Below, piece by piece: positions 2,388-32,910 of a stretch of 32,910 nucleotides of DNA. The stretch covers positions 1 to 32,910 of the forward strand of contig CAXHCG010000002.1 in the NCBI GenBank assembly GCA_964014905.1, in the 5' to 3' direction. The position numbers were made by a program, and so were the translations under genes. Within the stretch, counting starts at the first letter, position 1, and each line of letters opens with the position of its first letter. The notes below the pieces were generated by a model that was not told where the DNA came from, searched no databases, and was given only the letters and a program-made list of their open reading frames with translations. Source of the DNA: an uncultured Candidatus Poseidoniales archaeon. Lineage in GTDB: Archaea > Thermoplasmatota > Poseidoniia > Poseidoniales > Poseidoniaceae.

Positions 2388-2409
2388 GATTACTCCACAC
2401 ATGGAGAGT

Positions 2410-6300: not shown

Positions 6301-7315
6301 ACAGCACCGTCTCGGCACCTTCGTCGGAGATGGCATCGCTGAGCAAAATCGAGGCGTTTTTGCTGTCCTGCCACATGGAATTGGTCGAAGGGAATGTGGG
6401 CACCTGACTTTGGTCTTGAAGCACCACATAGTCCCATGCAGTTCCGCGAAGCGTGGTGTTCCACTGGTTGCCTGTGGTGTTGACGTTGGACCAGTGCTGC
6501 GGGAGTTTCATGCCACCACCGTTGACCGAACTGACACTGGCGTTGATGTTGTCGGCATCGAGTACACCCTCGACCACCGAGGCAAGGTTGTTCGCGCTCG
6601 TGTAGCTGTTGCCCATCATCAAGATGGAAGCAGAGGATGCATTGGTGGCGTTGCTTCCGGTGCCGTTGTCGGATGAATTGCCGGAGTCGCCCGAGTTATT
6701 GCCGGATGAATTGCCGGATGTACCGTTGGTGTGATTGGCCCACCACGAAGCCAGATCGGGTTGAACCTCAACGTCCAACAGGAAGGTGTCGGTCACCGTT
6801 CCAAGATTGTGGCCCGTGAACGAAACATTGGTGCTTGCTCCTGCAGCCATGGCGATCAGCGGCGAGCCACCAACGGAAAGCGAGGGGTGGTAGGCAGGAG
6901 CCACAGAAACAAGAACGGTAAGGATTGAACTGACGCCGTTGTCGGGTTCAGAGACGTTCACGGCGAACGACCCGCTGTCAGCCACGGTGGCCCCTTCTGC
7001 AAGGCGAACGACCAGGGTCGTGTTTTTCCTCCACGTCGGAAAGACGTTGTCCACCGTGCTGTCAATCGGAACGACCGTCCAAGGCGAAGCTAAGTTGGTG
7101 TCATCCACTGAAACGTCGTACGATTCGATGGAGGAAGCGTTGTTTTCAATGGTTAACGTGAGGTTCATGCTTTGCCCCGGTTCCAAAACAGCATGCTGGA
7201 CATCAACGCTGAGCAGAATGGAGGCGTGAGCCGAAACGGGCGTTACCAACGGAGAGAGGCCCATGGCCATCAGCGCCAAGACACAAAACACCGCACGGCC
7301 TGCTCGGCTGGACAT
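3305..7315 (-). CDS. Large type-I surface protein: signal peptide, CARDB/NEW3-like beta-sandwich repeats, embedded SGNH/DUF4886-like esterase domain, C-terminal TM, acidic tail and zinc ribbon
   Basis: The ORF is open from 7432, but the ATG at 7315 gives a canonical signal peptide, MSSRAGRAVFCVLALMAMGLSPLVTPVSAHA. It carries many L-x-V-x-N-x-G-N type beta-sandwich modules. SGNH blocks are MGNSYT, DYVVLQDQS and SDGSHPS. The TM helix is ATLGVMAAGWLLAIVAVQLL, followed by RRSSRHK, an acidic stretch, and CPSC...CPQC. Confidence 0.88.
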   Translation of the reverse strand: MSSRAGRAVFCVLALMAMGLSPLVTPVSAHASILLSVDVQHAVLEPGQSMNLTLTIENNASSIESYDVSVDDTNLASPWTVVPIDSTVDNVFPTWRKNTTLVVRLAEGATVADSGSFAVNVSEPDNGVSSILTVLVSVAPAYHPSLSVGGSPLIAMAAGASTNVSFTGHNLGTVTDTFLLDVEVQPDLASWWANHTNGTSGNSSGNNSGDSGNSSDNGTGSNATNASSASILMMGNSYTSANNLASVVEGVLDADNINASVSSVNGGGMKLPQHWSNVNTTGNQWNTTLRGTAWDYVVLQDQSQVPTFPSTNSMWQDSKNASILLSDAISDEGAETVLFMTWGYRDGDSLNAFNNNFTAMQARLVEGYTRYAENISSAGNAVWIAPVGLAYKSVHDNVVANGDDPTVSGNLFYDLYTSDGSHPSLSGSYLAACVFHSTITGQTCAGSNDSTNLNASVKLALQEAADDTVFNQTTGMSYYPWETSGTAAFGLGSSVPTGWNIQWQQDELANIPAGGSAATTLSITVPADAAPDFYGYRLTIGSTNGNVTSSTIIVVEVEAEPSVATAFLRQDDVFLPGQSTPTGVQVTNTGNTALDIEWALSQQPSSGLSPCIGSLVSAQTNGLQPDGIDEVDIVVEVDEHADSTSQCGFRLTAAHHHGEGVVVLDVLDFAVNIDEAVNFSLVGPTNIVDIVPAVGANYEIRLANHGSDEATFFLDVSESSGLDTVLVSASGVMVAAGEVGTWTVNTKGDAALSGLLQQSFSSTYNGETTSLAVDINLLEVDGVELLPPSEDRVLITPGSSTSMSITLRNTGTSNLSLVPTLSGLPSDIDVAYDVLEIHVNRTTEQTVVLTFSAATGSTPGTSSASLTYQASEFDITYTFDIVIVDREEVSVNTVQSRLLASPSSVSNLILDVTNLGTASDVYVLEWTTESQGDWFEFTLSPTTFQLSSGSTQQVSIGVQERSVGAPENGVVYTLKVVSTTNSDVSDTVNLTVQPVTAGVNFTILAEVDEAKPGESVYGTVVLTNTGNTEDTFSITTVGVDCGLDVSVTVGPGLSTEPYGWSCVVPNDAAAGQRALSFRAVSSVRSNVVVELGELYTVEADWPSDSRVALSFADGRLSLGIDSSTSTVLTVSNLGNAEVSGTLDAFGQDTGLVVMDWKRMSDDVATSDFTLTSGSSVDFLLTITSNTARTATSEVVVRATSTGGGVLTSDESVPLPISLVGPELPPNGLALPLGVSVSQSATLGVMAAGWLLAIVAVQLLRRSSRHKDGHMDDESQEEDDESEEKELPELGYNECRMDDESKVACPSCEARLGVPRGSTPPFRFNCPQCGEKIRVVE

Positions 7316-7422
7316 GAACCGACCAAAGCGACGCTGTTCAAGAGACTTCGGGAGCAATGGCTCCACACGCCTCACGCTTTGCCCATTCGCAAGTTGGTGC
7401 GCCGCGGCTGAAAGACGAAGCG

Positions 7423-7429
7423 AATATTT
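7423..7429. promoter_or_regulatory. Near-symmetric TATA-like box AATATTT, possibly serving aspS (ATG about 31 nt downstream) and the divergent surface-protein gene
   Basis: This is the only AT-rich element between the divergent starts at 7315 (-) and 7457 (+). Its spacing to the aspS ATG fits a leaderless transcript. Confidence 0.35.
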
Positions 7430-7456
7430 CATGTTCTACGCCTCAGCCCCCGAAGC

Positions 7457-20878: not shown

Positions 20879-22537
20879 TTGGCAAGAGATACCGTAGAAA
20901 GCATACTCAAAGGCGTCGCATCGGGAGACGCAAAGGGAGTCGCTAAGGAAATCAAAGGAACCCTCTCCAGAACGATAGGTCTCGCCACCCTGGTGATTCT
21001 CTCGTTGTCTTCGATGCTGGGCTCAGGTTTGTTCATTCTTCCTGCCTTTGCACAGGAAGTGGCAGGAGACGGTATGTGGTTTGCCTTTGTTTTGGCAGCG
21101 TCAGTGGTCCTCACAGGCGCCTTCTCAAAATCGGAACTCGCCAGTGCCATGCCCGAATCCGGTGGTGTTTACATCTACATGGAACGCACCTACGGCTCCC
21201 TCATGGGGACCATCAGTGGATTGGGCTTGTTTGCCTCGTTTATGCTCAAATCAGCGTTTGCTCTGATCGGTTTCGCCGCCTACCTCGAAGTGGTCACGGC
21301 CGCTCTTGACGTTGAGGTTAATCCGATTACGATGGCGCTGGTTCTCCTCACGTTCATCGTCATCATCAACATCACCGGCGTGAAGAAAATAAAAAAGGTC
21401 CAAACGCCAATTGTTGCAACAGCCGTTGGTTTCCTTCTCCTTCTGTGCATCATGGCCGTCCTGGGCGGTGATGCAGACTTCTCGCGACCCGTAACCAACA
21501 TTGACTATCTCAGTCCGGAAATGGGGACCGCAGCAGCCCTCGTGTTTGTGGCCTACTCCGGAGCCATCAAGGTTGGCGCAATCGGTGGCGAAGTGATGGA
21601 CCCTGAAAAAAACATCCCTCGAGGCATGTTCGCCTCGCTCTTGGTGGCAACCATCCTCTACGCAGGCGTTGCGTTTGTGATGGTATCGGTCCTCCCCACC
21701 GGATGGCACATGGACGACGGTCATGCAATTGAAAATCCAATCTACGTGTTTGCCGAACATGTGGGAGGCAGCACCATCGGCGTAATCGCTGCCCTCCTGG
21801 CCATCATTACGATGGCCTCAATGGCGCTTGCAGGTGTCTTGTCCGCCTCCCGGTTTCTTTTCGCCATGGCCAGAGACAACCTGCTTCCGTCCAAACTTGA
21901 AGACCTCAACCCAACCTATGAGACACCCCACTGGCCCATCATCATTACCGGATTGATGATGGCGACCGCCATTTTGACCATCGACGTCCACGCCATCGCA
22001 GAACTTGCGTCAGGGTTCAACATCATGGTGTTCGTTGCCATCAATGCCTCAGTGGTCGTGATGAGGCACGCTGGTCCACGGCACAACTGGAACCCACCTT
22101 ACAAATCCCCTCTTTACCCACTCCCTCAAATTTACGGTTCTGGAACCGGGATTCTTCTGCTGTGGCTCATCGGAACGAACGCCCTTATCGGAGCGGCAGG
22201 GGCCATCGGACTGGGCGTTGTCGTGTGGCTGGTGTACGGCCGCAAACACATCCTCGAGGAAGCACGCATCACGCCGTTTGCAACGTTCAAATCTCGCTTC
22301 ATAAATCCGACAAAAGAGGCGCATGAACGCTTCCTCACGGCGTTCCACTCAGCGGATATCGGCGGGAAAAACCACTTGACGCTCAGCGAATTTAGATCGG
22401 CCTTGACGCAAGGACTCGGAATGGACTTGGCACCGATGGAAGTTCGGATGTACTTTCACAAAGCGGATGCAGACGGAGACGGGGTCGTTGACATCGACGA
22501 GTTCCTCAATGCCATGGAACGCAATGAAGAGGAATGA
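20879..22537 (+). CDS. APC-superfamily amino acid/polyamine transporter with a C-terminal EF-hand pair
   Basis: 552 aa, roughly 12 TM helices, with an APC N-terminal signature (LSLSSMLGSGLFILP, SELASAMPESGGVYIYMERTYG). The cytoplasmic C-terminus carries a canonical EF loop, DADGDGVVDIDE. The TTG start is the only start-type codon before TM1. Confidence 0.85.
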   Translation: MARDTVESILKGVASGDAKGVAKEIKGTLSRTIGLATLVILSLSSMLGSGLFILPAFAQEVAGDGMWFAFVLAASVVLTGAFSKSELASAMPESGGVYIYMERTYGSLMGTISGLGLFASFMLKSAFALIGFAAYLEVVTAALDVEVNPITMALVLLTFIVIINITGVKKIKKVQTPIVATAVGFLLLLCIMAVLGGDADFSRPVTNIDYLSPEMGTAAALVFVAYSGAIKVGAIGGEVMDPEKNIPRGMFASLLVATILYAGVAFVMVSVLPTGWHMDDGHAIENPIYVFAEHVGGSTIGVIAALLAIITMASMALAGVLSASRFLFAMARDNLLPSKLEDLNPTYETPHWPIIITGLMMATAILTIDVHAIAELASGFNIMVFVAINASVVVMRHAGPRHNWNPPYKSPLYPLPQIYGSGTGILLLWLIGTNALIGAAGAIGLGVVVWLVYGRKHILEEARITPFATFKSRFINPTKEAHERFLTAFHSADIGGKNHLTLSEFRSALTQGLGMDLAPMEVRMYFHKADADGDGVVDIDEFLNAMERNEEE

Positions 22538-23027: not shown

Positions 23028-25628
23028 TTACTCATGACGAATCCACTCGCCTTCGGGTGTCACTTCCCAATATTGGAGTTCCTCGGAGACGTCGACGTAC
23101 CAACCTGTCTGGCCTTGGACAGTGGAGGGTGTTGCCTGCATCACGCCGATTTTGCCGGCTTCAAGTGCGAGATCCTTCATCGATTCAAGGGTCAAGCCAT
23201 GGCGCTCATGAAGGGGCGTGTTGTCCTCAACAGGTGATTCTACGATCTCGTCTTCATCCGCATCATCGTCGTACTCATCGTCATCAAAAGCGTCCTCAAG
23301 CCACTCCTCATCGGAAGCCTCTGCAGCCCTTCGGGTGAGGGTGATGAGAACGGCTAGAAGAAGAACGAGAAGGATGGCTGCCATGGTCATGGCGGTGTTG
23401 GTTGAACCGACCGCTCCACCGAGCAGAACCTCCTCAACATCGAAGAAGTTTTGAGCCAAAAGACCACTCCAACGGACCGTGCAAGAACGATCAGTGCCTC
23501 CATTTTGAATGTCAACCTCCCACGTACCGTTGGTGACGAAGCTGGTTGGTCCTGTTGTGCATGATACACTGGCGTTGGCCTTTGGAATGCTCAACGTGTT
23601 GCCGTATTCATCGGTCGCAAAAGCATTCAACAAAACGATGTCTCCTTCAGCGAGAATGGAGCGGCTTAGACTGGCTTGAATGCGAACAGGGGAACCAGGT
23701 TCAATGGTGAGTGGGATGGTGTGAACGGCACCTTCGTCTTCGAGAATGAGCGAATATGTTCCGACCTGTTTGCCGGTGAATTGCCAATATCCAAGTCCTG
23801 TAGGTGAGGCTGTCAATTCCCCAAACGAAGCGTTCAAGCTTGAGGTCACAGATACCGATTCGGCAACGTTGCCGTGGACGTCAACCACCTGAATAAAGAG
23901 GTCCTGCGGCAGTCCAGCCTTCACCACCAACCCCTCGTCAGCATCCGTGATCAACCCGTAAGCGTTGCCGGCCACGACCGTCAAACGAACGGTTGCAAAG
24001 ACACCGTCCGCATTCACTCGAATCTCATGACCGCCGACAGTCGTCGCCGTCCAGCGCCCGTTGTTGAGGAGCATCTCAAGGGTGATGTCATCACCGTCAA
24101 GGGTCCAATTGAGCGCAATGGAGTTCAGTTCGTTGGAGTAGGCATCGAAAAACATAGGATTCAGGTCCAAGGACCCGTCAGCCGGGACTCGGTCTCCTTC
24201 GCCTTCAAGCGTGATGAAGGCCAACCTTCCTGGCCGAACCTCAAACGATGCATCGGTCGTGAACATCGCCCCAGTGGCGTTGTCGAACCAACTTCCTTCA
24301 ATCCGCCATGATTGAACGCGCTCGGCTTGGAGGAGCGCATACGACGTATCGAGAACGAGTTCTTCCGTATCGCCCATGGTCGGTTCAATGGTCCCGTCAA
24401 CCACCCAACGGTTTCCTTTGATGTCCTCGGCTACAAGTTCGATCACAACCTGATCGCCTGCTGATGGATTCCGAGGTTCAAGTTGGAGCTTGATGTCAAT
24501 GGCCCTGCCATGGAGAACATCCAGATCCAACGAACTGCTCACCGTACCGTCCGTGCCCGTGATGGTCGCTGGACCGGTCGCAGACGGATTCCAGAACACA
24601 CGCTGATTCTCATCCACAGAAAGCCCTCCAGAAGAGGCCGTAAGAGCGTGAATCGAGGGTGAAACCATACCGATGTACCCGTTCACATCTCTTCGCTCAA
24701 ACATCAGTTCATAGGATTCACCGGCCAAAAATTCCGCTGGTGAATCAACCACCATGAGGGTAGAGGCAACAGCATCGCCGGGAATCACATGGAGTGTCGT
24801 GCTCCCCGTAATGTTGCCTGAAGAGACCGTTATCAGCCATCGACCGGTGTTCGTAGCAAGGTATTCACCCTGGGCATTGAACGAACCGTTTTCTGCAAAC
24901 CAAGACAGTGAACCAACCTTCGAGAGCGGCATGTCATAGCCGTTGATGTCAACAAGAGAGGGGCGAATCGTTTGCAGCGTTCCGGCTCTCACAACAAGGG
25001 GTTCATCGAACACAAAGGAGTGAGGAGCCCCTGCGATGACATCGATGGCCGCCCGAGATTCGAGTTGGTTGTAGCGCACCCGAGCTTGGACTTCACCGAG
25101 TTCTTCGGCCGTCCACGATGGTTGACCATGACCAGCGTAATCGCCGTTGATATCCCAAACCATGGATGATGGCCCAACCATGCGGTTTCCTCGTCCGTCA
25201 AGAACATCCGCAGTGAGGGTGGTTGGTTCCAAAACACCGACAGAACGTGTCGTAATCTCAATGGATGTGGGTACCCCTGGATTCACAGAGATGTTGGTAC
25301 TCGCTATCAAACCATTGTGTTCCGCTGTAATTTCAATCAAACCTGCCGACCAGGGGTAAAACAGACCGTCTTCGGAAATCGTCCCGTTGCTGACCGACCA
25401 AGACACGTCCCCGGTCAGCACGTTGTTGACCGGGTCGTAGATAATGGCCTCAAACAACACCACTTCATCGGCTGAGATGGAGGTTGGGGCAGCATCTATT
25501 ACAACACGGTCGGCAGTTCCTGAACGCATTGAAACGCTGGCGTCCCCCAAAAGTGAAGGCACCGTTGTTGACCATGTCCCGAGGAGGACAAGCCCAACAA
25601 GAACGGCGCAAGCCTTCGGGAACGACAC
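23028..25628 (-). CDS. Type-I surface protein with tandem Big_2-like Ig domains, C-terminal TM, acidic tail and a Trp-rich terminal motif
   Basis: 866 aa. GTG start with GAGGT 9 nt upstream, overlapping the stop of the giant gene. The signal peptide is MSFPKACAVLVGLVLLGTWS. Repeated units follow the Big_2 pattern ...DVSWSVSNGTISEDGLFYPWSAGLIEITAEHNG.... The TM helix is AMTMAAILLVLLLAVLITLT, followed by RRAAE, DEEWLEDAFDDDEYDDDADEDE, and a C-terminal GWYVDVSEELQYWEVTPEGEWIRHE. Confidence 0.87.
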   Translation of the reverse strand: MSFPKACAVLVGLVLLGTWSTTVPSLLGDASVSMRSGTADRVVIDAAPTSISADEVVLFEAIIYDPVNNVLTGDVSWSVSNGTISEDGLFYPWSAGLIEITAEHNGLIASTNISVNPGVPTSIEITTRSVGVLEPTTLTADVLDGRGNRMVGPSSMVWDINGDYAGHGQPSWTAEELGEVQARVRYNQLESRAAIDVIAGAPHSFVFDEPLVVRAGTLQTIRPSLVDINGYDMPLSKVGSLSWFAENGSFNAQGEYLATNTGRWLITVSSGNITGSTTLHVIPGDAVASTLMVVDSPAEFLAGESYELMFERRDVNGYIGMVSPSIHALTASSGGLSVDENQRVFWNPSATGPATITGTDGTVSSSLDLDVLHGRAIDIKLQLEPRNPSAGDQVVIELVAEDIKGNRWVVDGTIEPTMGDTEELVLDTSYALLQAERVQSWRIEGSWFDNATGAMFTTDASFEVRPGRLAFITLEGEGDRVPADGSLDLNPMFFDAYSNELNSIALNWTLDGDDITLEMLLNNGRWTATTVGGHEIRVNADGVFATVRLTVVAGNAYGLITDADEGLVVKAGLPQDLFIQVVDVHGNVAESVSVTSSLNASFGELTASPTGLGYWQFTGKQVGTYSLILEDEGAVHTIPLTIEPGSPVRIQASLSRSILAEGDIVLLNAFATDEYGNTLSIPKANASVSCTTGPTSFVTNGTWEVDIQNGGTDRSCTVRWSGLLAQNFFDVEEVLLGGAVGSTNTAMTMAAILLVLLLAVLITLTRRAAEASDEEWLEDAFDDDEYDDDADEDEIVESPVEDNTPLHERHGLTLESMKDLALEAGKIGVMQATPSTVQGQTGWYVDVSEELQYWEVTPEGEWIRHE

Positions 25629-25640
25629 TTCATCACGACC

Positions 25641-28600
25641 TCATTCTGAGTATTCTTGCCATTCCTCTTCGCCGGCAAGACGGAACCACCAGGTTCCTTC
25701 TTCGTCTTCCCACCATTCGGTTCCGTCTTCATCAACGTTGGTTTCAATGGCCTCTTCCTCAGGCTCGTCTTCGGAGTGTTCTTCAGGAGGAGGTCCGCTT
25801 GGTCCAGGGGCAGGACCACTTGGACCAGGGGCAGGACCGGATGGTCCCGGAGCAGGACCGGTGGGACCCGGTGCCGGACCCGTGGGTCCAGACGGACGAT
25901 CATCATCGTCGTCATAGTCGTCATCATCGTCCCAGTCGTCTAAACGGCCACCGCGCATGAACATCACACCCAGACCAAGAAGAACCAACGCCACAACACC
26001 GAGCAGCCCAGCGCCAACGTAGTACAGCGTACCACCGGCTTCGAAGAAGCCGGCGAGCGTGCCTTCAACGGTGATTTCTTTGTTCACCCGTTCGGCTCCA
26101 ACACTGACCGTGATGGTTTGTGGCCCGTCGTCAAGGGTCGTGATGGTCCAGAGGTCCGAGGAAGTCATCGTGGCTGTGGCGCGTCCTGTCGCTTCAACCT
26201 GAATGCTTCCAGGAACGGGAATCTCGTTGTCAAAGGCGTCAAAGGCTCGAATGCTGACATCAAGACTTGTGAGTTGTTCAAGCGATTCGGTGCTGAGATT
26301 TACGTCCAGCCGGGCAACGATGCTCTGTGCCGAGACGGTGATTTCGGTGGTCGAAACTGCTCCTCCAACGGCGTATTGCAAGGTGTGGACACCCGCAACT
26401 TGTGCGTCATAGGTGTACGTTCCTTCAGACGTAGTAATGATGCTTAGCGTCGGTACTACACCGCCGTTCTCGGTCCACTCGACGTCTTGTGCAAACTGAT
26501 TGCCGTCGGCATCGGTTCCCGTGACTTGAATGTCAACGCGGTCGCCTGCTGTGGGCGTCGCCAGCGAAACATCGGCCTCCACCGTTACCGCTTCTCCATG
26601 AAGAACGGTGATGGTGATGCCATCCGAGATGTTGAATCCGGTTCCGCTGATGGAATACGCCTCAATGCGCCATTCACCGACGGCCGATGCTTCCCATCGC
26701 ATGCCGTCAAGCAGCAACTGTGTCGTGATGTCTTGCACATCGCCAGTGTCCACGTTCACTTCCACCCACGTGAGTTCATCAGAAGCAATACGGTTGGTAT
26801 CGGTATCGTAGAGGTCAGAGAGGAAATCAACGGCGAAATCCGAAGTCAATTCAAACACGGCCCCTGTGGACCGATCCGGGTCATTGGCCGTCCCTTGGAT
26901 GCTTACCGTGTGAAGGAATCCATGGTCGACGGTCATGTTGATGCTGACGGCATGCACGGTGGTGCCGGCGTCATAGGTTGCTGTGAGCATGTAGGGCTCA
27001 TCGCTGGCAAAGTACGGCGTGAAGGTCGTTGAATCGCCGTTCAGCACCTCAAGGAAACTCGACGAATCACCCATGCCTGGATGGTCAAGGGTCCAATTAA
27101 CAACAATGGCCCATTGATTTCCTTTGGCGTCAATGGCGAAAACATCCGCCTCTAAGGTCTCGTCGGCCGTGAGGTCAAAGTGTGCCCAAGTCGAGATTAC
27201 ATCGTCAACCTCAAGCCGCAGTGTTTGGATTTCTCCCTTCACGACATCGATGGTGATTTGCGTCAAGGTGGTCTCATACCGAGCCTCAAGAATCTTTGAA
27301 CCGGTCTTCACCGGGTCCCAGATAGCGGGGGCACCCGGCGTTAACTGCCCGTCAGAGGTCTTGGTCCAGTTGTCTGCGGGCAAAACGACCGAGAGACGGT
27401 TGCCTCTCACGTCAACGCGTGTGGTGTTGATGTAGACGCGGTCGTCGGCCGTGATGGACGTTGAGGACGTGTTCAATTCGAGGTAGTCAATCGCACCGTA
27501 GCCGACGGTAATCTGCAATTCAGCCATGGCTCCGGAAACCGACGTCAAGTTCAGCCACCAAACACCGACGTGGTCGGGGAAATACTCCTGGTTCACTTCT
27601 GAATAATTTCCGTTGGTGGTCGTCCATGTCAAGTTGCCCGCACTGGATACGTCGAGGTCGTTGCCGAATTGGTCGTAAAGGTCAATCGTGATGGCACACC
27701 AGACACCGGCCGGAACCGTGCCTTCACAGCCACCCAACACAAAGTAGGCGGGGGAGCCGGGAAGAACGGTGATCGCCACATCAACAAACTCACCCGACGG
27801 TACATCGTGAGCGACGCGTACACTGTGAGCGCCTGCGGCGTAGGGCTGGAAGACTGAGCCAAGCATGCTTCCGTTGGTCGGTGTGAACAGAATGGGTTCA
27901 CTGAGCACCATGTTGCCGTGCTGGTCAACCATGTGCGCAGTTATTTCCAAGGTTTCGTCGGCCGTGATGGTAGCCGTCAGGGGTGAGACGACAAGCTCGG
28001 TCGGTGCGCCCGCTGTGACGGTGATGTTTTGATGACCGCACACCAACCCGAAACAGGACGTGATGGTCACATTGCCTGCGGAGTTTGGCGTAAACAATCC
28101 GTTGCTGCCAATGTTGCCAGAAGAAGAAGACCATGTCATCGGTGGTGCTTGCACCATCGAAAGGTGATCATACGCAACGGAATTGAAATTCACGGCGGTG
28201 TCGGCGTCGGTGGTCTGCGCCCCGGTCGGACTGATGGAAACACTGGTGATGTTTGTGGTGTTGAACAACACCTGAGGACGGTTTATGGTTGAGGTTCCGG
28301 AATAGAACGATGCGTGAGCGTATCCGGTGTTTGGCGTGGCGATGATGGTCCATGCTTGCTGATTGGTGATGGTCATGCCAAGCGTGCTGACGTCGAACCA
28401 AATCCAACCTTCTGTGTCAACGTTGACCACGGTGGTTGAAACCGCAGAAGCGTAATCCACGCCGGCTTGCATACCGGGAGCACCCCAGGTTCCACCTGCA
28501 GTCGTCCCGTTCCACGTTGCCGAGGCCTGGCCCCAATTTGCGTTTGTAATGGGATGGACGCTAAAGGACACCGAAGTAGCTCCTTGAACCGATTCCCATG

Positions 28601-31600
28601 ACTCAACGTAGAGGCCCAAGGAAGCGGAGTGAACGTTTTGGTACATGGGGAACGGGATTTGAGCGGCGTTCAAGGCGACGTTGATTCGGCACTCATCGGT
28701 CCAAAGCGTTCCACAATAGGTGCCCGTGCTGATGGTCGGTTCACCGGCAAAATTGGTGTTTGCATATTCGCTGTACAAGGCTGTGTCCTGAACGTTGGTG
28801 TGGCCAAAGGCCGCTACTTCATTCCCGGTTTGGAATTCGTAGGTGTAGGTGTAGTCGTTGTTGTATTGCTGATTCGGATCGCCGATAGCAAAACTCCATC
28901 GCGACGAGGAGGGCCCCGGGATGGACTGGTTCACGCCTTGGACCCACCATGAGAAGAGCTGCCCCTCGCTCAAGTTTCTGGCAAACCGGAAGGTGGTGTT
29001 GGTGATTTCGGAATCCTCCCATGAACGGAACTTGTACACACCCGTTTCGTTGGCGATGGTCACGATGTATCCGGTTGCTCCGCTCACCGGCGTCCATGAA
29101 AGGGCCGGCTGAGTTGAAGCGATGAGCAAACCGTTGGTCTCCCCGTAAAGGACCTCGCCATCGGCAGGGCTGTTGAGGGACGGCTGACCTGGCGGGACGA
29201 TGCCGTTCACGTTGTCGACGTAATCCAACACGAGGTGCGGCCGATAAGCTGGATTCGAATATTCCGATGAGTAGAAGCTGTGAGATGAACCCGTTGAGCC
29301 CACCATGGCGAGCATGAAGGTCATCGTCGTGTTCCCGTTTGCGATGTTGGATTGGGCGAGGCTTGTCAAATCCCATTCCATCCAACCAAACGGATTGGTC
29401 AATGTCAAGGTGGAGCGCGTGATTTCACTCGTTGAACACAGAGGTGCTGTAGCCCAGACCACGCTTGATTCTGTGAAGCCGCTGCAAGGGTAGGCGGCGA
29501 TCGTGGTGGAGGAGGTGCCGGAAACACCGGGCTGATACAAACGGAGCATCATTTGCGTCGGCGTCATGGCAGAGGGCCATGGAATGTTGGTCAAGTCAAA
29601 CTCCATGAGAACGCGGCTTTGACCGGTTCCCAGAGCGTTAATGCCAAGCACCATTGTGGTTGAACCGCCACGATTGACGGTGGCGTTGGAATCAATTTCA
29701 ACGTCGAGAACGGTGGGTAGCAATCCCGTGGTTTCAAAGATGGAACCGCGAGAAAGGTTCACTGTGTTGTTTCCGTTTCCATCATCGCTGCCTTGGTCGA
29801 CAGGGATCCGAAGTTTATTCACCGACGACCATTCTCCAATCCGGTCGCCCTGATCGGCACGAATCCGCCAATATTGCCACAAATCGCCCTTGTAGAGCTC
29901 AGCATCGTTGTAGGTGTTGTTGAGGAAGTCGAACGTGTCGTTGCCGTAGGCGCCCGACATGATTTCCTCGTGCGTCCAGCAGGTGGTGAGTTCTTCGTTG
30001 AGGAACCACGGATCGATACCGCCGCACGCTGCGATTTGAGTGTGATTTGAGTAGGTGAGATTCCAAGTGAAATCCGTGCTGTTCATTCCGGAAGGCAATG
30101 CTTTGGTCAAGTCCCAAAGGGTCGTGCCATCTGCAGGAAGGAGGCCGGTTGGTTGGCTTGGCGTCCATGCATCGATGGTTCTGTAGGTCAAGTTGAGCCG
30201 GGGGCGGAGGTCAATGGAAGTTGCATCGCTCGAAGCAAAGGAGACACGTCCTGCCACGCCGTTGTTCCGTTCCACCGGGAACAGAACGACATCAAGCTCT
30301 GCCGAATTGCGAGCCAGAGCGTGTTGGACAAGTCCTGTTACGTTGAAGGCAACCGTTCCAGAGCTGTTGACCCACTGAGCGGGGTTGAAGGGTACGTCAA
30401 AGTCGTCACCCGAATATCCACCGCTTGCAGCCCATGTTGAGTTGTTGCCTGCTGGGTAGGCGAACACCGAAGATTCACTCCACGCAGAGGTTGTTTCCCC
30501 AACAGCAATGAGCGTGGATTGGTAGGTATTGTAGGCGCTGAGTTCTAAACTGGCGTCTATAACTTCGTACGTCCCGGGGAGAGGGAGGCCACTGAAATCC
30601 ATGTTCAAGAGACTCATTGAGCGGAGATTTTGATTGCTGGTTGATACTGAACTTCGGCCCACAAAGAGGGCGGAGGATGAACCGCGGTTGGTGTAGATGT
30701 TTCCGGTATCGAGGTAGGTGTCGTACATCACGTTTGGATAACTGAGCGATGGCACGATGGCCCCTTCTTGGATTGAGAGGTTCGCATAGGTACTGTTGAT
30801 TTCTTCACCGAAGTCATTGGGGAGATAAAACACCGTGGACGTGCTTCTGGGTCCCAGCATGCCGTTGTTCATCGGTTGAACCATCCAGCGGATTTCTTGA
30901 GCGAAATCCAATTCCTGCGGGGGGGTAAATGTGCGATTGGTGACGTCGAAGTCGGCGGTTGCCACACGGGAATCATAGGTGTACAATCCTGCCATGTCAT
31001 CGTTGGCGTCAGCCTGCATGAACACGCGCCAGCCGGTGACTGTGGTCGAGCCGCTGTAGGTCCAACTGAAGGTTGGCAAGCGGTCAGCCATGAGGGCGTG
31101 AGAGGTCGTATCCCAGACGATGGCGGCGTTGTTTGGTCCTGCATTCACTCCGCTCACGGTTGGGGTTGCGACGGTTCCATCTTCCCAAACCAGCGTCAAG
31201 TAGGGACGCTCACTGGCGCTTCCTTCGGTGGATGTGAAGGTGATTTCGTCGGTGGTTTGGCTTGAAGCATAGACCATCAACGACACGTGATTGTGCCCCG
31301 CAGCGAGGGCGGCTTGAACGGCCTCGGTAACGTCAAAATCCATCCAGTCATCAGCAACACTGTCGACCAAGTCCACATAGCCACCCACGTCCGTACCGAT
31401 GCCTCGTCCACCAAGCTGATTCCAAGCGTTGGTGCCGTCGTAGGTTGTGCCGTTGGCCGATGTGGTCCAAGGTTGGAGGACGGGTCGAATGGCGACTGGC
31501 TCGTCTTCGATTGATCCGTACTCAGAAAATAAACTGAGTTCGGCGCCGGTAACACGAGCGCCAGCCGGCTGTGGAACTTCGTTTAACGGTATGCGAAGAA

Positions 31601-32910
31601 GCGCCGCTGCTTGGTATCCAGAAGACAATTCACCAACGCTTAGGGACGTTGAATTCTCGTAGGTGTTGTCCGACCCTGAACCGTTCTCGATGACGTAGGT
31701 GTCGACAAAATGCGGCGTATTGAGGTGTGGAAGAGCACCGTGATGACGCAATTCGACCGATGCCTTCGTTGCGTTGAACACCACCGTGTTCAAGTCGGGG
31801 AGTTGGAAGTGATAGGCGGACGACCAGTTGCCGATCTGATTGGTGGCTGAGACCGCACGAACGCGCCAATACCATGTGTTCCCATCGTCCAAATCGGATT
31901 GGAGTGAGAACGAGGCGTTCACAATGTCAAAGCCAGCGTCGTTCCACGAAGTATAGGTCAGGCTGTTCACCGAAGAGAAGTCACTCTGCGTATCGAGTTG
32001 TACAATGTAGCCCGTGAGCGCCATGGTCCCTGAAAAGGTCCATTCGAGTTCAGGTTGGGTGATGGGTGTGAGATCAACACCGGTGCCGATGGACCATGAA
32101 CCGTTCAGCGGCAGGGCCGGCGACGGATCGGACGGCAGGGCGTCCGATCCAGGGACGTAAACAAAGGAAAGTTCAGGGCGATTGGCCATGGAGTCTTCAG
32201 CCGTGCTGAAGTAAGCGGTCCGAGCACCACCCGAGCCAGCCCCGAGCATGCCGACAATGAAGTCAACGCGCCGGTCTTCCCGCATGGCGTTTTGAACGGC
32301 AAGCGTGACGTTCCACTCAACATCGTCACCTTCTGAATAGGAGGTGCCGACGCCGACACTGGCCAAAAGCGAGCCGCGCTCTGTTCCTTTAGCGCCTGCC
32401 GTGCCCCAGGAGTTTGAACCGTCATAGCTTCCCCACGTCGCATCCTCTGCGCTCCAGTCGTTTTGGTTGCTTTCCCAAACGCCGATGGTCGGAGAGCCGA
32501 ACGTGGTCGAGGTGAGCGACATCGACAGATGAGCGGACTCAACGGCGTAGCCGGTAGGGAGGAGGTTCGAGACCAAATTGCATCCAACCAAACCCGTGAT
32601 CTCGCCACCGAAGGGGCTGTAGTCAATCGTCAACTCTGAGTCACCGTCGAAATTGTCATTCGTTGCAGAACTGTCGATGTATGTGTCCATGCATTCAGGG
32701 TACTGGTTATCCTGTGAGCCGTTTCCATGCTTCAGCCTGAATTCGTAGCGGTCACCGCCCAGCCATATGCTCTCGAGAGAGGAGACCAAGAAACTGGAAC
32801 TTTCCCACGCCCCGTAGTGTCCGTCGCTGTCAACGGTGGCCATGCGCCAGAAGTACATGTTCCCAACCTCCAACGTTCGGTCGCCGGTCATGTCAAGGGC
32901 ACCATCGGAA
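25641..32910 (-). CDS. Giant surface protein, 5'-partial (more than 2,420 aa): 5 x [FN3-like + DNRLRE-like] supermodules, about 8 Big_2-like Ig domains, TM, poly-Asp, (GPxGPAP)5 and a Trp-rich terminal motif
   Basis: The frame is open to the window edge: upstream of the track's Met the codons read SDGALD with no stop. FN3-like strands YWRVRAVSATNQIGNWSSAYHFQLP recur five times. Each is followed by a module shaped like DTY..N......LLR..L..P.GA.V..A.L.L......W.E...TW......DVT..VQ....F.S.E...RP.L.L.Y. The TM helix is YYVGAGLLGVVALVLLGLGVMFM. Confidence 0.9.
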   Translation of the reverse strand, partial: SDGALDMTGDRTLEVGNMYFWRMATVDSDGHYGAWESSSFLVSSLESIWLGGDRYEFRLKHGNGSQDNQYPECMDTYIDSSATNDNFDGDSELTIDYSPFGGEITGLVGCNLVSNLLPTGYAVESAHLSMSLTSTTFGSPTIGVWESNQNDWSAEDATWGSYDGSNSWGTAGAKGTERGSLLASVGVGTSYSEGDDVEWNVTLAVQNAMREDRRVDFIVGMLGAGSGGARTAYFSTAEDSMANRPELSFVYVPGSDALPSDPSPALPLNGSWSIGTGVDLTPITQPELEWTFSGTMALTGYIVQLDTQSDFSSVNSLTYTSWNDAGFDIVNASFSLQSDLDDGNTWYWRVRAVSATNQIGNWSSAYHFQLPDLNTVVFNATKASVELRHHGALPHLNTPHFVDTYVIENGSGSDNTYENSTSLSVGELSSGYQAAALLRIPLNEVPQPAGARVTGAELSLFSEYGSIEDEPVAIRPVLQPWTTSANGTTYDGTNAWNQLGGRGIGTDVGGYVDLVDSVADDWMDFDVTEAVQAALAAGHNHVSLMVYASSQTTDEITFTSTEGSASERPYLTLVWEDGTVATPTVSGVNAGPNNAAIVWDTTSHALMADRLPTFSWTYSGSTTVTGWRVFMQADANDDMAGLYTYDSRVATADFDVTNRTFTPPQELDFAQEIRWMVQPMNNGMLGPRSTSTVFYLPNDFGEEINSTYANLSIQEGAIVPSLSYPNVMYDTYLDTGNIYTNRGSSSALFVGRSSVSTSNQNLRSMSLLNMDFSGLPLPGTYEVIDASLELSAYNTYQSTLIAVGETTSAWSESSVFAYPAGNNSTWAASGGYSGDDFDVPFNPAQWVNSSGTVAFNVTGLVQHALARNSAELDVVLFPVERNNGVAGRVSFASSDATSIDLRPRLNLTYRTIDAWTPSQPTGLLPADGTTLWDLTKALPSGMNSTDFTWNLTYSNHTQIAACGGIDPWFLNEELTTCWTHEEIMSGAYGNDTFDFLNNTYNDAELYKGDLWQYWRIRADQGDRIGEWSSVNKLRIPVDQGSDDGNGNNTVNLSRGSIFETTGLLPTVLDVEIDSNATVNRGGSTTMVLGINALGTGQSRVLMEFDLTNIPWPSAMTPTQMMLRLYQPGVSGTSSTTIAAYPCSGFTESSVVWATAPLCSTSEITRSTLTLTNPFGWMEWDLTSLAQSNIANGNTTMTFMLAMVGSTGSSHSFYSSEYSNPAYRPHLVLDYVDNVNGIVPPGQPSLNSPADGEVLYGETNGLLIASTQPALSWTPVSGATGYIVTIANETGVYKFRSWEDSEITNTTFRFARNLSEGQLFSWWVQGVNQSIPGPSSSRWSFAIGDPNQQYNNDYTYTYEFQTGNEVAAFGHTNVQDTALYSEYANTNFAGEPTISTGTYCGTLWTDECRINVALNAAQIPFPMYQNVHSASLGLYVESWESVQGATSVSFSVHPITNANWGQASATWNGTTAGGTWGAPGMQAGVDYASAVSTTVVNVDTEGWIWFDVSTLGMTITNQQAWTIIATPNTGYAHASFYSGTSTINRPQVLFNTTNITSVSISPTGAQTTDADTAVNFNSVAYDHLSMVQAPPMTWSSSSGNIGSNGLFTPNSAGNVTITSCFGLVCGHQNITVTAGAPTELVVSPLTATITADETLEITAHMVDQHGNMVLSEPILFTPTNGSMLGSVFQPYAAGAHSVRVAHDVPSGEFVDVAITVLPGSPAYFVLGGCEGTVPAGVWCAITIDLYDQFGNDLDVSSAGNLTWTTTNGNYSEVNQEYFPDHVGVWWLNLTSVSGAMAELQITVGYGAIDYLELNTSSTSITADDRVYINTTRVDVRGNRLSVVLPADNWTKTSDGQLTPGAPAIWDPVKTGSKILEARYETTLTQITIDVVKGEIQTLRLEVDDVISTWAHFDLTADETLEADVFAIDAKGNQWAIVVNWTLDHPGMGDSSSFLEVLNGDSTTFTPYFASDEPYMLTATYDAGTTVHAVSINMTVDHGFLHTVSIQGTANDPDRSTGAVFELTSDFAVDFLSDLYDTDTNRIASDELTWVEVNVDTGDVQDITTQLLLDGMRWEASAVGEWRIEAYSISGTGFNISDGITITVLHGEAVTVEADVSLATPTAGDRVDIQVTGTDADGNQFAQDVEWTENGGVVPTLSIITTSEGTYTYDAQVAGVHTLQYAVGGAVSTTEITVSAQSIVARLDVNLSTESLEQLTSLDVSIRAFDAFDNEIPVPGSIQVEATGRATATMTSSDLWTITTLDDGPQTITVSVGAERVNKEITVEGTLAGFFEAGGTLYYVGAGLLGVVALVLLGLGVMFMRGGRLDDWDDDDDYDDDDDRPSGPTGPAPGPTGPAPGPSGPAPGPSGPAPGPSGPPPEEHSEDEPEEEAIETNVDEDGTEWWEDEEGTWWFRLAGEEEWQEYSE
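25785..25895 (-). repeat. In-frame 21-nt tandem repeat, five copies, encoding GPTGPAP-GPTGPAP-GPSGPAP-GPSGPAP-GPSGPPP in the cytoplasmic tail of the giant protein
   Basis: Plus-strand units are aggaggaggtccgcttggtcc / aggggcaggaccacttggacc / aggggcaggaccggatggtcc / cggagcaggaccggtgggacc / cggtgccggacccgtgggtcc. The copies differ mainly at synonymous positions. Confidence 0.9.

What the first reader, a model, noticed from the sequence alone, without database searches (positions are those of the whole stretch)
28240..32910. Giant protein built from five FN3-like + DNRLRE-like supermodules
The N-terminal ~1,550 visible residues are a five-fold iteration of a ~300-aa unit.

**FN3-like half.** Each unit starts with an FN3-like module ending in a Y/F-W-R-V/M-x-A...G-x-W-S...F signature. 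The five copies read MYFWRMATVDSDGHYGAWESSSF, TWYWRVRAVSATNQIGNWSSAYHF, EIRWMVQPMNNGMLGPRSTSTVF, WQYWRIRADQGDRIGEWSSVNKL and LFSWWVQGVNQSIPGPSSSRWSF.

**DNRLRE-like half.** A beta-sandwich follows, resembling the DNRLRE / disaggregatase-related carbohydrate-binding domain. Its pattern is DTY.....N......LL.F.L..LP....V..A.L.L, then W.E...TW, then DVT..VQ, then F.S.E...RP.L.L.Y.

The copies are highly diverged at the sequence level, so this is an old, maintained array rather than a recent duplication. It suggests multivalent glycan or particle binding. The gene is truncated by the window, so the true size and the signal peptide are unknown.
Basis: partly seen in the sequence, partly recalled or inferred. 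Interest (0 to 1): 0.62.

Follow-up and report, generated by a model that had tools for sequence, protein, structure and literature searches.

The report
Giant CBM96-repeat archaeal surface protein
The region encodes part of a roughly 3,050-residue membrane-anchored surface protein of Marine Group II archaea (Poseidoniales), built from old, diverged copies of a known carbohydrate-binding-type fold alternating with fibronectin-like modules; the domain types are already known and what it binds is still unknown.

Summary
Window 25641-32909 (minus strand) is one ORF, open at its 5' end, with 2,422 residues visible. Residues 1-1563 hold five DNRLRE/CBM96 domains (NCBIfam NF033679, 5 stretches, E 1.9e-80; Pfam CBM96, E 5.5e-44). 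They alternate with FN3-like modules at a period of about 327 aa.

Full-length orthologues (2,997-3,100 aa, Poseidoniales) show the window lacks about 630 N-terminal residues: a signal peptide, two more DNRLRE domains and 1.6 more FN3 modules. The real plan is 7 DNRLRE plus 6 FN3, then about 8 Ig-like domains, a TM helix and an acidic cytoplasmic tail. All 114 full-length close orthologues and all 12 distant cluster representatives keep this plan.

In a tree the domains group by position (98-100% support), so the array is old. It is under strong purifying selection (dN/dS 0.03-0.05). The gene is syntenic and transcribed in seawater metatranscriptomes.

AlphaFold models are confident, and Foldseek matches the alginate-binding (7VBO) and chondroitin-sulfate-binding (8WAB) CBMs. 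However, the basic alginate-binding groove of 7VBO is not conserved: every domain is acidic and nearly lysine-free.

Best reading: a conserved, probably glycosylated surface rod that displays seven non-equivalent CBM-fold modules, with an unknown ligand. It is a new member of a known kind and of moderate interest.

The parts
25641..32909 (-). Visible part (2,422 aa plus stop) of the giant surface-protein gene; the 5' end runs off the window
   Evidence: orthologues of 2,997-3,100 aa
32781..32909 (-). C-terminal ~43 residues of FN3-like module F2, cut by the window end
   Evidence: own FN3 HMM, env 6-43; aligns to P0002 F2 562-669
32127..32750 (-). DNRLRE/CBM96 domain D3 (res 54-261); the most conserved D position
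   Evidence: AF2 model; conservation 0.63
31785..32123 (-). FN3-like module F3 (res 263-375)
   Evidence: Foldseek hits to FN3 arrays
31155..31766 (-). DNRLRE/CBM96 domain D4 (res 382-585)
30804..31148 (-). FN3-like module F4 (res 588-702)
30153..30788 (-). DNRLRE/CBM96 domain D5 (res 708-919); one of the more variable D positions
29787..30149 (-). FN3-like module F5 (res 921-1041), carrying a two-Cys loop insertion that varies among orthologues
   Evidence: metatranscriptome contigs differ from the window at 29892-29992
29184..29771 (-). DNRLRE/CBM96 domain D6 (res 1047-1242); best-scoring stretch for both NF033679 and CBM96
28860..29180 (-). FN3-like module F6 (res 1244-1350)
28221..28850 (-). 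DNRLRE/CBM96 domain D7 (res 1354-1563); last of the array
26040..28229 (-). Stalk of about eight Ig-like beta-sandwich domains (res ~1561-2290)
   Evidence: AF2 pLDDT 89.6, pTM 0.40, all-beta; Foldseek hits NUP210, GhpA neck, DSCAM, titin and SbsC/Sap S-layer proteins; weak LigA Ig-like hit
25947..26033 (-). Single C-terminal transmembrane helix (res ~2293-2321), followed by RGGR
   Evidence: hydropathy scan; sequence
25644..25946 (-). Acidic cytoplasmic tail: poly-Asp tract, GPxGPAP repeats and a Trp-rich end
   Evidence: sequence; net charge -31 in P0002; subject of other notes in this scan

Best explanation
The stretch encodes modules F2(partial)-D3-F3-D4-F4-D5-F5-D6-F6-D7 of a type-I membrane-anchored surface protein. 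The protein is kept as one syntenic gene of about 3,050 codons in Marine Group II archaea (Poseidoniales, genus Poseidonia and relatives).

Shown:
- In orthologues a signal peptide leads the chain out of the cell.
- Seven DNRLRE/CBM96-fold beta-sandwiches alternate with six FN3-like modules.
- About eight Ig-like domains follow, then one TM helix, then an acidic cytoplasmic tail.
- The seven CBM-fold modules are old paralogues. Each has its own position-specific conserved sequence, and all are under strong purifying selection.
- The gene is transcribed in the sea.

Inferred:
- The FN3/DNRLRE head is a fairly rigid rod. It is held out from the membrane on a more flexible Ig stalk. I estimate about 80-90 nm if fully extended, from typical domain sizes.
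- The protein is heavily N-glycosylated.
- The seven non-equivalent CBM-fold surfaces bind polymeric material (glycans or glycoconjugates of dissolved or particulate organic matter, or of other cells). The cell thereby captures or attaches to its substrates.
- The cytoplasmic tail couples the rod to intracellular partners.

The ligand is unknown. It is not alginate bound in the way the CBM96 founder binds it.
For: Domain identity:
- NF033679 has 5 stretches at E 1.9e-80. Pfam CBM96 has 5 stretches at E 5.5e-44.
- A profile of the five window domains hits 7vbo_A at E 1.2e-5.
- The AF2 model of D3-F3-D4 has pLDDT 88.4 and pTM 0.83. Its Foldseek hits are 8wab (E 1.7e-8, TMt 0.74), 7vbo (E 1e-7, TMt 0.73) and FN3 arrays.
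- The FN3 profile hits titin at 1.6e-7 and FN3con at 3e-3.

Topology:
- Orthologue P0002 starts with a hydrophobic signal.
- There is one C-terminal TM helix, followed by RGGR and an acidic tail.

Stalk:
- AF2 gives pLDDT 89.6 but pTM 0.40, and Foldseek matches Ig arrays. The low pTM contrasts with 0.83 for the head.

Conservation:
- All 114 full-length orthologues have exactly 7 DNRLRE domains.
- So do all 12 distant 50%-cluster representatives, which are 2,997-3,089 aa long.
- The domain tree groups by position, with 98-100% support for every position.
- dN/dS is 0.025-0.049 against the closest species.
- Amino-acid identity to a relative is 83%, within the 63-96% range of the cytoplasmic neighbour genes.
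- The same gene neighbourhood is found on a 1.5-Mb contig.
- The family was found in 41 species genomes, all Poseidoniales.

Surface-glycoprotein character:
- There are 46 N-x-S/T sequons against 27.8 +/- 4.5 expected.
- The pI is 4.05 and lysine is 0.5% of residues.

Transcription:
- Contigs from four metatranscriptome runs cover the gene at word depth 12-19. Most neighbours lie at 1-10 and AspRS at about 10-13.
Against: - No ligand binding has been shown for any member of this family.
- The residues that bind alginate in 7VBO (K10, K22, K25, K27, K31, R36) are S/E/G/T/D here. The seven domains carry 0-1.4 basic residues at the 10 groove positions, against 6 in 7VBO.
- The groove-equivalent columns are no more conserved than the domain average, at percentiles 0.10-0.68. 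There is therefore no sign of a conserved canonical binding site.
- The fixed domain number, very low dN/dS and housekeeping-like rate would equally suit a purely structural envelope protein.
- No catalytic partner domain is present, unlike in bacterial DNRLRE/FN3 proteins.
- Rigidity and length are read from pTM and typical domain sizes, because model coordinates could not be inspected.
- Contig word depth is a poor measure of expression.
Confidence: 0.55

Rival explanations
1. It is an envelope scaffold. The protein is a structural canopy, glycocalyx or S-layer-like component of the Poseidoniales cell envelope. The DNRLRE and FN3 modules then serve as building blocks and protein-protein contacts rather than as lectins. 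This echoes the DNRLRE domains first described in Methanosarcina surface proteins.
For: - The length and the 7+6+8 domain plan are invariant across the whole family.
- dN/dS is 0.03-0.05 and the evolutionary rate equals that of cytoplasmic neighbours.
- The gene sits at a single syntenic locus.
- The groove-equivalent positions are not specially conserved.
- The stalk resembles the Ig arrays of the S-layer proteins SbsC, Sap and EA1.
- The protein is sequon-rich, acidic and lysine-poor, as archaeal envelope glycoproteins are.
- It is among the best-transcribed genes in the window.
Against: - Transcript contig depth is only about 2-3 times that of its neighbours and similar to AspRS. That is far from the dominance expected of an S-layer gene, though the measure is weak.
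- A 320-kDa TM-anchored chain is atypical for S-layer subunits.
- No lattice-forming evidence exists.
- No paper in the searched library describes a Poseidoniales S-layer.
Confidence: 0.25
2. It is an alginate or other acidic-polysaccharide capture protein. On this reading the seven CBM96 modules bind alginate or similar polyanionic algal polysaccharides, as the family name implies and as a 2026 paper assumes for MGII CBM96.
For: - The domains belong to CBM96 by the Pfam cut-off.
- The closest solved folds bind alginate (7vbo) and chondroitin sulfate (8wab).
- PMC13753752 states that MGII CBM96 is 'predicted to bind alginates'.
- MGII archaea bloom after phytoplankton blooms, according to the literature cited in that paper.
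Against: - Six of the seven mutationally defined binding residues of TM6-N4 are Lys or Arg (PMC9971899). They are replaced here by S/E/G/T/D.
- Every domain has a net charge of -8 to -22 and 0-4 lysines.
- Only D2, which lies outside the window, keeps Tyr159 plus one basic residue.
- DNRLRE domains elsewhere sit on enzymes with different substrates and have neutral surfaces (PMC12278694).
Confidence: 0.05
3. It is a strain-variable adhesin or virus-receptor decoy. On this reading it is a fast-evolving repeat adhesin like the bacterial Bap, LapA or SiiE proteins, with repeats that expand, contract and diversify under host or virus pressure.
For: - It is a giant surface protein with tandem beta-sandwich repeats.
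- The membrane-distal modules D1 and D2, plus D5, F5 and D7, are somewhat more variable, at 0.45-0.49 mean pairwise identity.
- A 99-nt stretch in the F5 loop differs between the window and the metatranscriptome contigs.
Against: - The repeat number is invariant in 126 full-length proteins.
- Paralogous repeats share only 23-33% identity.
- The domains are orthologous by position.
- dN/dS is 0.03-0.05.
- The rate is not faster than that of neighbouring cytoplasmic genes.
Confidence: 0.03
4. It is an outside-in receptor. On this reading the ectodomain senses contact or ligand, and the conserved cytoplasmic tail (acidic tract, GPxGPAP repeats, Trp-rich mini-domain) relays this to intracellular partners, integrin-like. 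This is compatible with, not exclusive of, the binding reading.
For: - The topology is type I, with a conserved tail: 0.61 mean identity in the aligned columns.
- An earlier scan note reports that the Trp-rich tail module recurs on other Poseidoniales surface proteins and on a kinase (I did not test this).
- The downstream 866-aa surface-protein gene starts 10 nt after the stop codon.
Against: - No signalling domain is present in the protein itself.
- No partner has been identified.
- The tail could simply be an anchoring or spacer element.
Confidence: 0.1

Closest known systems
CBM96 founding member TM6-N4 of alginate lyase Dp0100, Defluviitalea phaphyphila (PDB 7VBO; PMC9971899)
   Same: - It has the same fold and family. 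The profile hit is E 1.2e-5 over 176 positions and the Foldseek hit is E 1e-7, TMt 0.73.
- The hydrophobic core positions V7, F42, A54, W84 and I131 are conserved.
   Different: - In 7VBO it is a single accessory module on a secreted bacterial lyase.
- Its basic binding groove (K10/K22/K25/K27/K31/R36) is replaced here by small or acidic residues.
- Here there are seven copies, no catalytic domain, and a membrane anchor.
Chondroitin-sulfate-binding CBM of a chondroitinase (PDB 8WAB)
   Same: It is the best structural match to the modelled DNRLRE domains (E 1.7e-8, TMt 0.74-0.76, 18% identity).
   Different: - It is an accessory module of a bacterial glycosaminoglycan lyase that binds a polyanion.
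- No paper on it was found in the searched library, so its binding residues could not be compared.
DNRLRE domain of Methanosarcina surface proteins / disaggregatase-related proteins (Adindla & Guruprasad 2004, PMC2447325; NCBIfam NF033679; Pfam Disaggr_repeat PF06848)
   Same: - It is an archaeal cell-surface context with the same ~200-aa domain.
- NF033679 is passed at 268.7 bits.
   Different: - Disaggr_repeat falls just below its cut-off here (33.3 against 33.9 bits).
- There is no beta-helix or catalytic part.
- The strict alternation with FN3, the Ig stalk and the TM anchor are not features described for those proteins.
Giant bacterial repeat adhesins (SiiE, LapA/Bap-type, ice-binding adhesin MpIBP); comparison from general knowledge
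   Same: They are very long surface rods made of tandem Ig-like or FN3-like beta-sandwiches that project a binding region away from the cell.
   Different: - Those have many near-identical repeats with variable copy number, T1SS export and outer-membrane retention.
- Here the repeats are 23-33% identical, the number is fixed, each position is orthologous across species, and the anchor is a C-terminal TM helix.
Planctomycetota multidomain lyase-like protein (locus L042)
   Same: It combines DNRLRE/Disaggr_repeat domains (3) with FN3 domains (6) after a signal peptide. It is 26% identical over D3-F3-D4.
   Different: - Its modules do not strictly alternate (D-D-FN3x4-D-FN3x2).
- It carries a PcRGLX-like lyase region.
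- It is bacterial.

Membership tests
DNRLRE domain (NCBIfam NF033679) | Score above the curated whole-protein cut-off (34 bits) | tested here: met
   268.7 bits, E 1.9e-80, 5 stretches
CBM96 (Pfam PF24517 / CAZy CBM96) | Score above the Pfam gathering threshold (26 bits) | tested here: met
   150.3 bits, E 5.5e-44, 5 stretches
CBM96 | Beta-sandwich fold superposable on the founder 7VBO | tested here: met
   AF2 pLDDT 88.4; Foldseek 7vbo E 1e-7, TMt 0.73, and 8wab E 1.7e-8, TMt 0.74
CBM96 (as alginate binder) | Basic groove residues shown by mutagenesis to bind alginate (K10, K22, K25, K27, K31, R36, Y159) | tested here: not met
   These are replaced by S/E/G/T/D in D1-D7 of 114 orthologues. 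There are 0-1.4 basic residues at the 10 groove positions, against 6 in 7VBO. The domains have net charge -8 to -22.
CBM96 / any CBM | Demonstrated carbohydrate binding | not testable with these tools
   This needs recombinant modules and glycan arrays or ITC.
Fibronectin type III (Pfam PF00041 and relatives) | Curated HMM threshold | tested here: not met
   Window F3's only hit is Ig_Rha78A_N at 19.3 bits (cut-off 27.4). Among 22 modules from this family, 7 hit Ig_Rha78A_N and 3 hit fn3 at E <= 0.1, best 4e-6.
Fibronectin type III | FN3 sequence profile and fold (tyrosine-corner Y/W-x-R-V-x-A F strand, about 100-aa beta-sandwich) | tested here: met
   The family profile hits titin FN3 arrays at E 1.6e-7 and consensus FN3con at E 3e-3. 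Foldseek hits LAR, gp130, NCAM and titin FN3 tandems.
Repeat adhesins of Bap/LapA/SiiE type | Near-identical tandem repeats with variable copy number | tested here: not met
   Paralogues are 23-33% identical. The number is fixed at 7+6 in 126 proteins.
S-layer protein | Forms the lattice; dominant expression | tested here: inconclusive
   Only contig word depth was available. It is about 2-3 times that of neighbours and similar to AspRS. Lattice formation is not testable here.
Methanosarcina disaggregatase | Disaggr_repeat plus a catalytic beta-helix region | tested here: not met
   Disaggr_repeat scores 33.3 bits against a cut-off of 33.9, in one stretch. No other enzymatic family was detected.

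The most novel reading that the evidence does not exclude
The protein is the main organiser of the Poseidoniales cell surface. A rigid seven-module head on a flexible Ig stalk forms a canopy tens of nanometres above a membrane with no known wall. The conserved Trp-rich cytoplasmic tail links it to intracellular partners. That would make it an archaeal counterpart of eukaryote-style type-I adhesion receptors, coupling capture of algal-derived polymers or particles to a response inside the cell.
Probability: 0.12. Interest if true: 0.75.

Novelty: new member of a known kind. Interest (0 to 1): 0.38.

Why it matters
Marine Group II archaea are among the most abundant uncultured microbes of the surface ocean, and how they meet particles and polymers is unknown.

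This gene is a core, strongly constrained and transcribed surface component, with seven different CBM-fold modules. It is therefore an obvious candidate for that interface.

There is also a practical point. The 'CBM96 = alginate binding' label now being applied to MGII genomes is not supported at residue level. Ecological inferences drawn from it should be treated with caution until a ligand is measured.

Tried and rejected
I could therefore not recover the window's own N-terminus or count paralogues in its genome. Orthologues were used instead.
- A whole-protein self-BLAST returned only the identity hit. I replaced it with a blastp of 120-aa pieces against each other.
- A single-sequence search of the PDB missed CBM96 and gave only weak Ig-like hits. 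A profile of the five domains found 7VBO.
- A literature search for the 8WAB chondroitin-sulfate CBM paper found nothing. Searches for a described Poseidoniales S-layer or for this protein family in MGII papers found nothing specific.
- Alginate binding by homology transfer is rejected on the groove residues and charge.
- The diversifying repeat-adhesin reading is rejected on the fixed copy number, positional orthology and dN/dS.
- An enzymatic role is rejected, because no catalytic family is detected in 2,422 residues.
- Model coordinates are not exposed. Surface-conservation mapping and measurement of the inter-domain geometry could not be done.
Full report
**What is there**

Window 25641-32909 on the minus strand is a single open reading frame that runs off the window end.

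NCBIfam NF033679 (DNRLRE_dom) matches in five stretches at 268.7 bits against a cut-off of 34. Pfam CBM96 (PF24517) matches in five stretches at 150.3 bits against a cut-off of 26.

A blastp of 120-aa pieces of the protein against each other gives off-diagonal matches at offsets of about 327, 655 and 980 residues, with E down to 6e-7. MAFFT aligns the five ~327-aa units end to end. The periodicity is therefore real and far beyond chance.

HMMs built from the window's own copies place the modules as follows:
- DNRLRE domains at residues 54-261, 382-585, 708-919, 1047-1242 and 1354-1563.
- FN3-like modules at residues 6-43 (cut by the window), 263-375, 588-702, 921-1041 and 1244-1350.

**The whole protein**

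A search of the 5.8-billion-protein collection returned more than 120 relatives of 46-91% identity. Almost all are 3,013-3,100 aa long. Where a source names them, the names are 'DNRLRE domain-containing protein' or 'hypothetical protein', from Candidatus Poseidoniales or Poseidoniaceae.

The closest, P0002 (91% identical, 3,054 aa), shows what the window lacks. About 630 residues are missing: a hydrophobic signal sequence, DNRLRE D1, FN3 F1, DNRLRE D2 and most of F2.

The real plan is signal peptide, then D1-F1-D2-F2-D3-F3-D4-F4-D5-F5-D6-F6-D7, then an all-beta stalk, one TM helix and a 100-aa acidic tail. The window holds D3 to D7, so 'five supermodules' is an artefact of truncation. The array also begins with a DNRLRE domain, not with an FN3 module.

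All 114 full-length proteins from that search carry exactly seven DNRLRE domains at the same positions. An exhaustive HMMER search of 1.84 billion cluster representatives found 435 hits at E <= 1e-3. Twelve further full-length representatives of 2,997-3,089 aa were checked. All have the same 7+6 layout and a C-terminal TM helix. Weaker hits are fragments or unrelated FN3-rich proteins with no DNRLRE domain.

A scan of one genome per GTDB species found the gene in 41 genomes. All are labelled Poseidoniales, Poseidoniaceae, Poseidonia or an older name for the same MAG lineages. One distant Planctomycetota protein also matched.

The window's own N-terminus and any paralogues could therefore not be examined.

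**Module identities**

A profile of the five window DNRLRE domains hits the CBM96 founder 7VBO at E 1.2e-5 over 176 positions.

AlphaFold2 was run on D3-F3-D4 (546 aa) with 63 orthologues as the alignment. It gives mean pLDDT 88.4 and pTM 0.83. Foldseek against the PDB returns the following:
- a chondroitin-sulfate-binding CBM (8wab; E 1.7e-8, TMt 0.74);
- the alginate-binding CBM96 (7vbo; E 1e-7, TMt 0.73);
- TGF-beta-family prodomains;
- FN3 tandems (LAR, gp130, NCAM, titin).

A 22-sequence profile of the FN3-like modules hits titin FN3 arrays (E 1.6e-7) and the consensus design FN3con (E 3e-3). Taken singly, the modules stay below Pfam thresholds: 7 of 22 touch Ig_Rha78A_N and 3 of 22 touch fn3. 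'FN3-like' is the right wording.

The stalk (residues 1553-2292) models at pLDDT 89.6 but pTM only 0.40. It is all-beta with about eight ~90-aa domains. It matches Ig arrays such as NUP210, the GhpA neck, DSCAM, titin and the S-layer proteins SbsC and Sap.

The pTM contrast (0.83 against 0.40) suggests a head with defined inter-domain geometry on a looser stalk.

**Age and constraint**

Paralogous DNRLRE domains share 23-29% identity. FN3 modules share 25-33%.

I built a maximum-likelihood tree of 61 DNRLRE domains from nine proteins. Every position D1 to D7 forms its own clade with 98-100% support, using the minimum possible number of label changes. The seven-fold array therefore predates the divergence of these species, and each position has kept its own identity.

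Nei-Gojobori dN/dS for D3-F3-D4 against the closest species genomes is 0.025-0.049. dS is about 0.8-2, which is near saturation, so these values are approximate.

Against a relative on a 1.5-Mb contig the giant is 83% identical. That sits inside the 63-96% range of its cytoplasmic neighbours. The neighbourhood is syntenic. Replication factor C lies divergently upstream. Downstream lie a second surface-protein gene, ferritin, an APC permease, the LigB pair and PanB.

Mean pairwise identity by domain is fairly even, at 0.45-0.63. D3-F3-D4 and D6-F6 are the most conserved. D1, D2, D5, F5 and D7 are the least conserved.

**Surface character and expression**

- The visible protein has pI 4.05 and net charge -213.
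- The ectodomain has 46 N-x-S/T sequons, against 27.8 +/- 4.5 in shuffles.
- Lysine is 0.5% of residues, against about 3-4% in the cytoplasmic proteins of the window and 1.0-2.6% in the other large surface ORFs.
- Contigs from four metatranscriptome runs of one seawater sample cover the gene at >=95% identity, with word depth 12-19.
- Most neighbours lie at 1-10, AspRS at about 10-13, and the other surface ORF at 3-2402 at about 14-17.
- The gene-to-gene differences argue against plain DNA carry-over. Contig depth is still a poor measure of expression.
- The gene is transcribed at a good but not dominant level.

**What it probably does**

The only residue-level functional knowledge for this fold is the alginate site of TM6-N4. 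It is a shallow basic groove in which K10, K22, K25, K27, K31, R36 and Y159 are needed for binding (PMC9971899).

I aligned 7VBO with all 798 domains of the 114 orthologues. The numbering check reproduced every residue named in the paper. The groove positions here are occupied by S, E, G, T or D. The seven positions carry on average 0-1.4 basic residues at the ten groove sites, against six in 7VBO. Only D2, which lies outside the window, keeps Tyr159. The hydrophobic core positions are conserved.

The groove columns are no more conserved than the rest of each domain, at percentiles 0.10-0.68. Each domain has a net charge of -8 to -22 and 0-4 lysines.

Alginate binding by the founder's mechanism is thus not supported. 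The statement in a 2026 paper that MGII CBM96 is 'predicted to bind alginates' (PMC13753752) rests on the family name alone. DNRLRE domains elsewhere accompany lyases and a PHB hydrolase with different substrates and different surfaces.

My best reading has two parts:
- **Shown:** a type-I anchored, strongly constrained, transcribed surface protein with seven non-equivalent CBM-fold modules.
- **Inferred:** a glycosylated rod that binds polymeric material with several different surfaces.

The main rival is a purely structural envelope role. The invariant plan, the very low dN/dS and the absence of a conserved canonical site fit that about as well. The modest transcript level speaks weakly against it.

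A diversifying repeat adhesin is rejected on the fixed copy number, positional orthology and dN/dS. An enzyme is rejected because no catalytic family is detected.

**Comparison and novelty**

Both module families are known. NCBI already auto-names orthologues as DNRLRE domain-containing proteins, and a paper has noted that MGII genomes are rich in CBM96. I found no paper describing this protein family or its fixed 7+6+8 plan.

Earlier notes of this scan on orthologues in other genomes reached the same architecture. I re-derived it independently here and do not count those notes as evidence.

It is a new member of a known kind. Its value lies in being a conserved candidate for the cell-environment interface of an abundant uncultured archaeal group. 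It also cautions against function transfer from the CBM96 label.

Noticed in passing
window 25641-32909, 3305-7432, 23028-25628 versus the cytoplasmic genes: Surface proteins of this organism are strongly lysine-depleted. The giant has 0.5% K (13 of 2,422 residues), and the 1,375-aa and 866-aa surface ORFs have about 1%. Cytoplasmic neighbours have about 3-4%, while arginine is retained. Distant family members are also K-poor, at 0.26-1.9%.
   Followed up: partly
window 29892-29992 (F5 two-Cys loop, residues ~974-1006): In all four metatranscriptome runs, the contigs that span this point join 29892 to 29992 and skip 99 nt. The tool could not say whether other letters lie between. The stretch is in frame and lies in the most indel-prone, variable loop of the family. 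It may be a strain variant or a divergent replacement.
   Followed up: partly
window 25620-25645: The downstream 866-aa surface-protein ORF starts (ATG at ~25631, or the listed GTG at 25628) within about 10 nt of the giant's TGA. A GAGGT overlaps the stop codon, suggesting co-transcription or translational coupling. The new ORF opens with a signal-peptide-like MKCRSRRLAPFLLGL.
   Followed up: partly
window 23028-25628 versus L001 19244-21764: The gene downstream of the giant is one 866-aa ORF in the window. On the related 1.5-Mb contig it is called as two genes (313 + 499 aa, 80-nt gap), at 79% identity overall. This could be a fusion or split, or a frameshift in one of the assemblies.
   Followed up: no
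window 20879-22537 versus L001 22273-23670: The APC amino-acid permease is 552 aa with a C-terminal EF-hand pair in the window. It is 465 aa in the relative, and only 63% identical over 452 aligned residues. It is the most diverged gene of the syntenic block, and the EF-hand tail may be lineage-specific.
   Followed up: no
L042 1053-6323 (Planctomycetota MAG): This is a bacterial protein of more than 1,757 aa. It has a signal peptide, three DNRLRE/Disaggr_repeat domains, six FN3 domains and a PcRGLX-like (rhamnogalacturonan-lyase-type) region. It is the only non-archaeal hit of the genome scan.
   Followed up: partly
window 1-2402 (minus strand ORF, 3' open): Another large ORF with no Pfam hits and a serine/threonine-rich, surface-protein-like composition has metatranscriptome contig depth as high as the giant, at about 14-17.
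   Followed up: no
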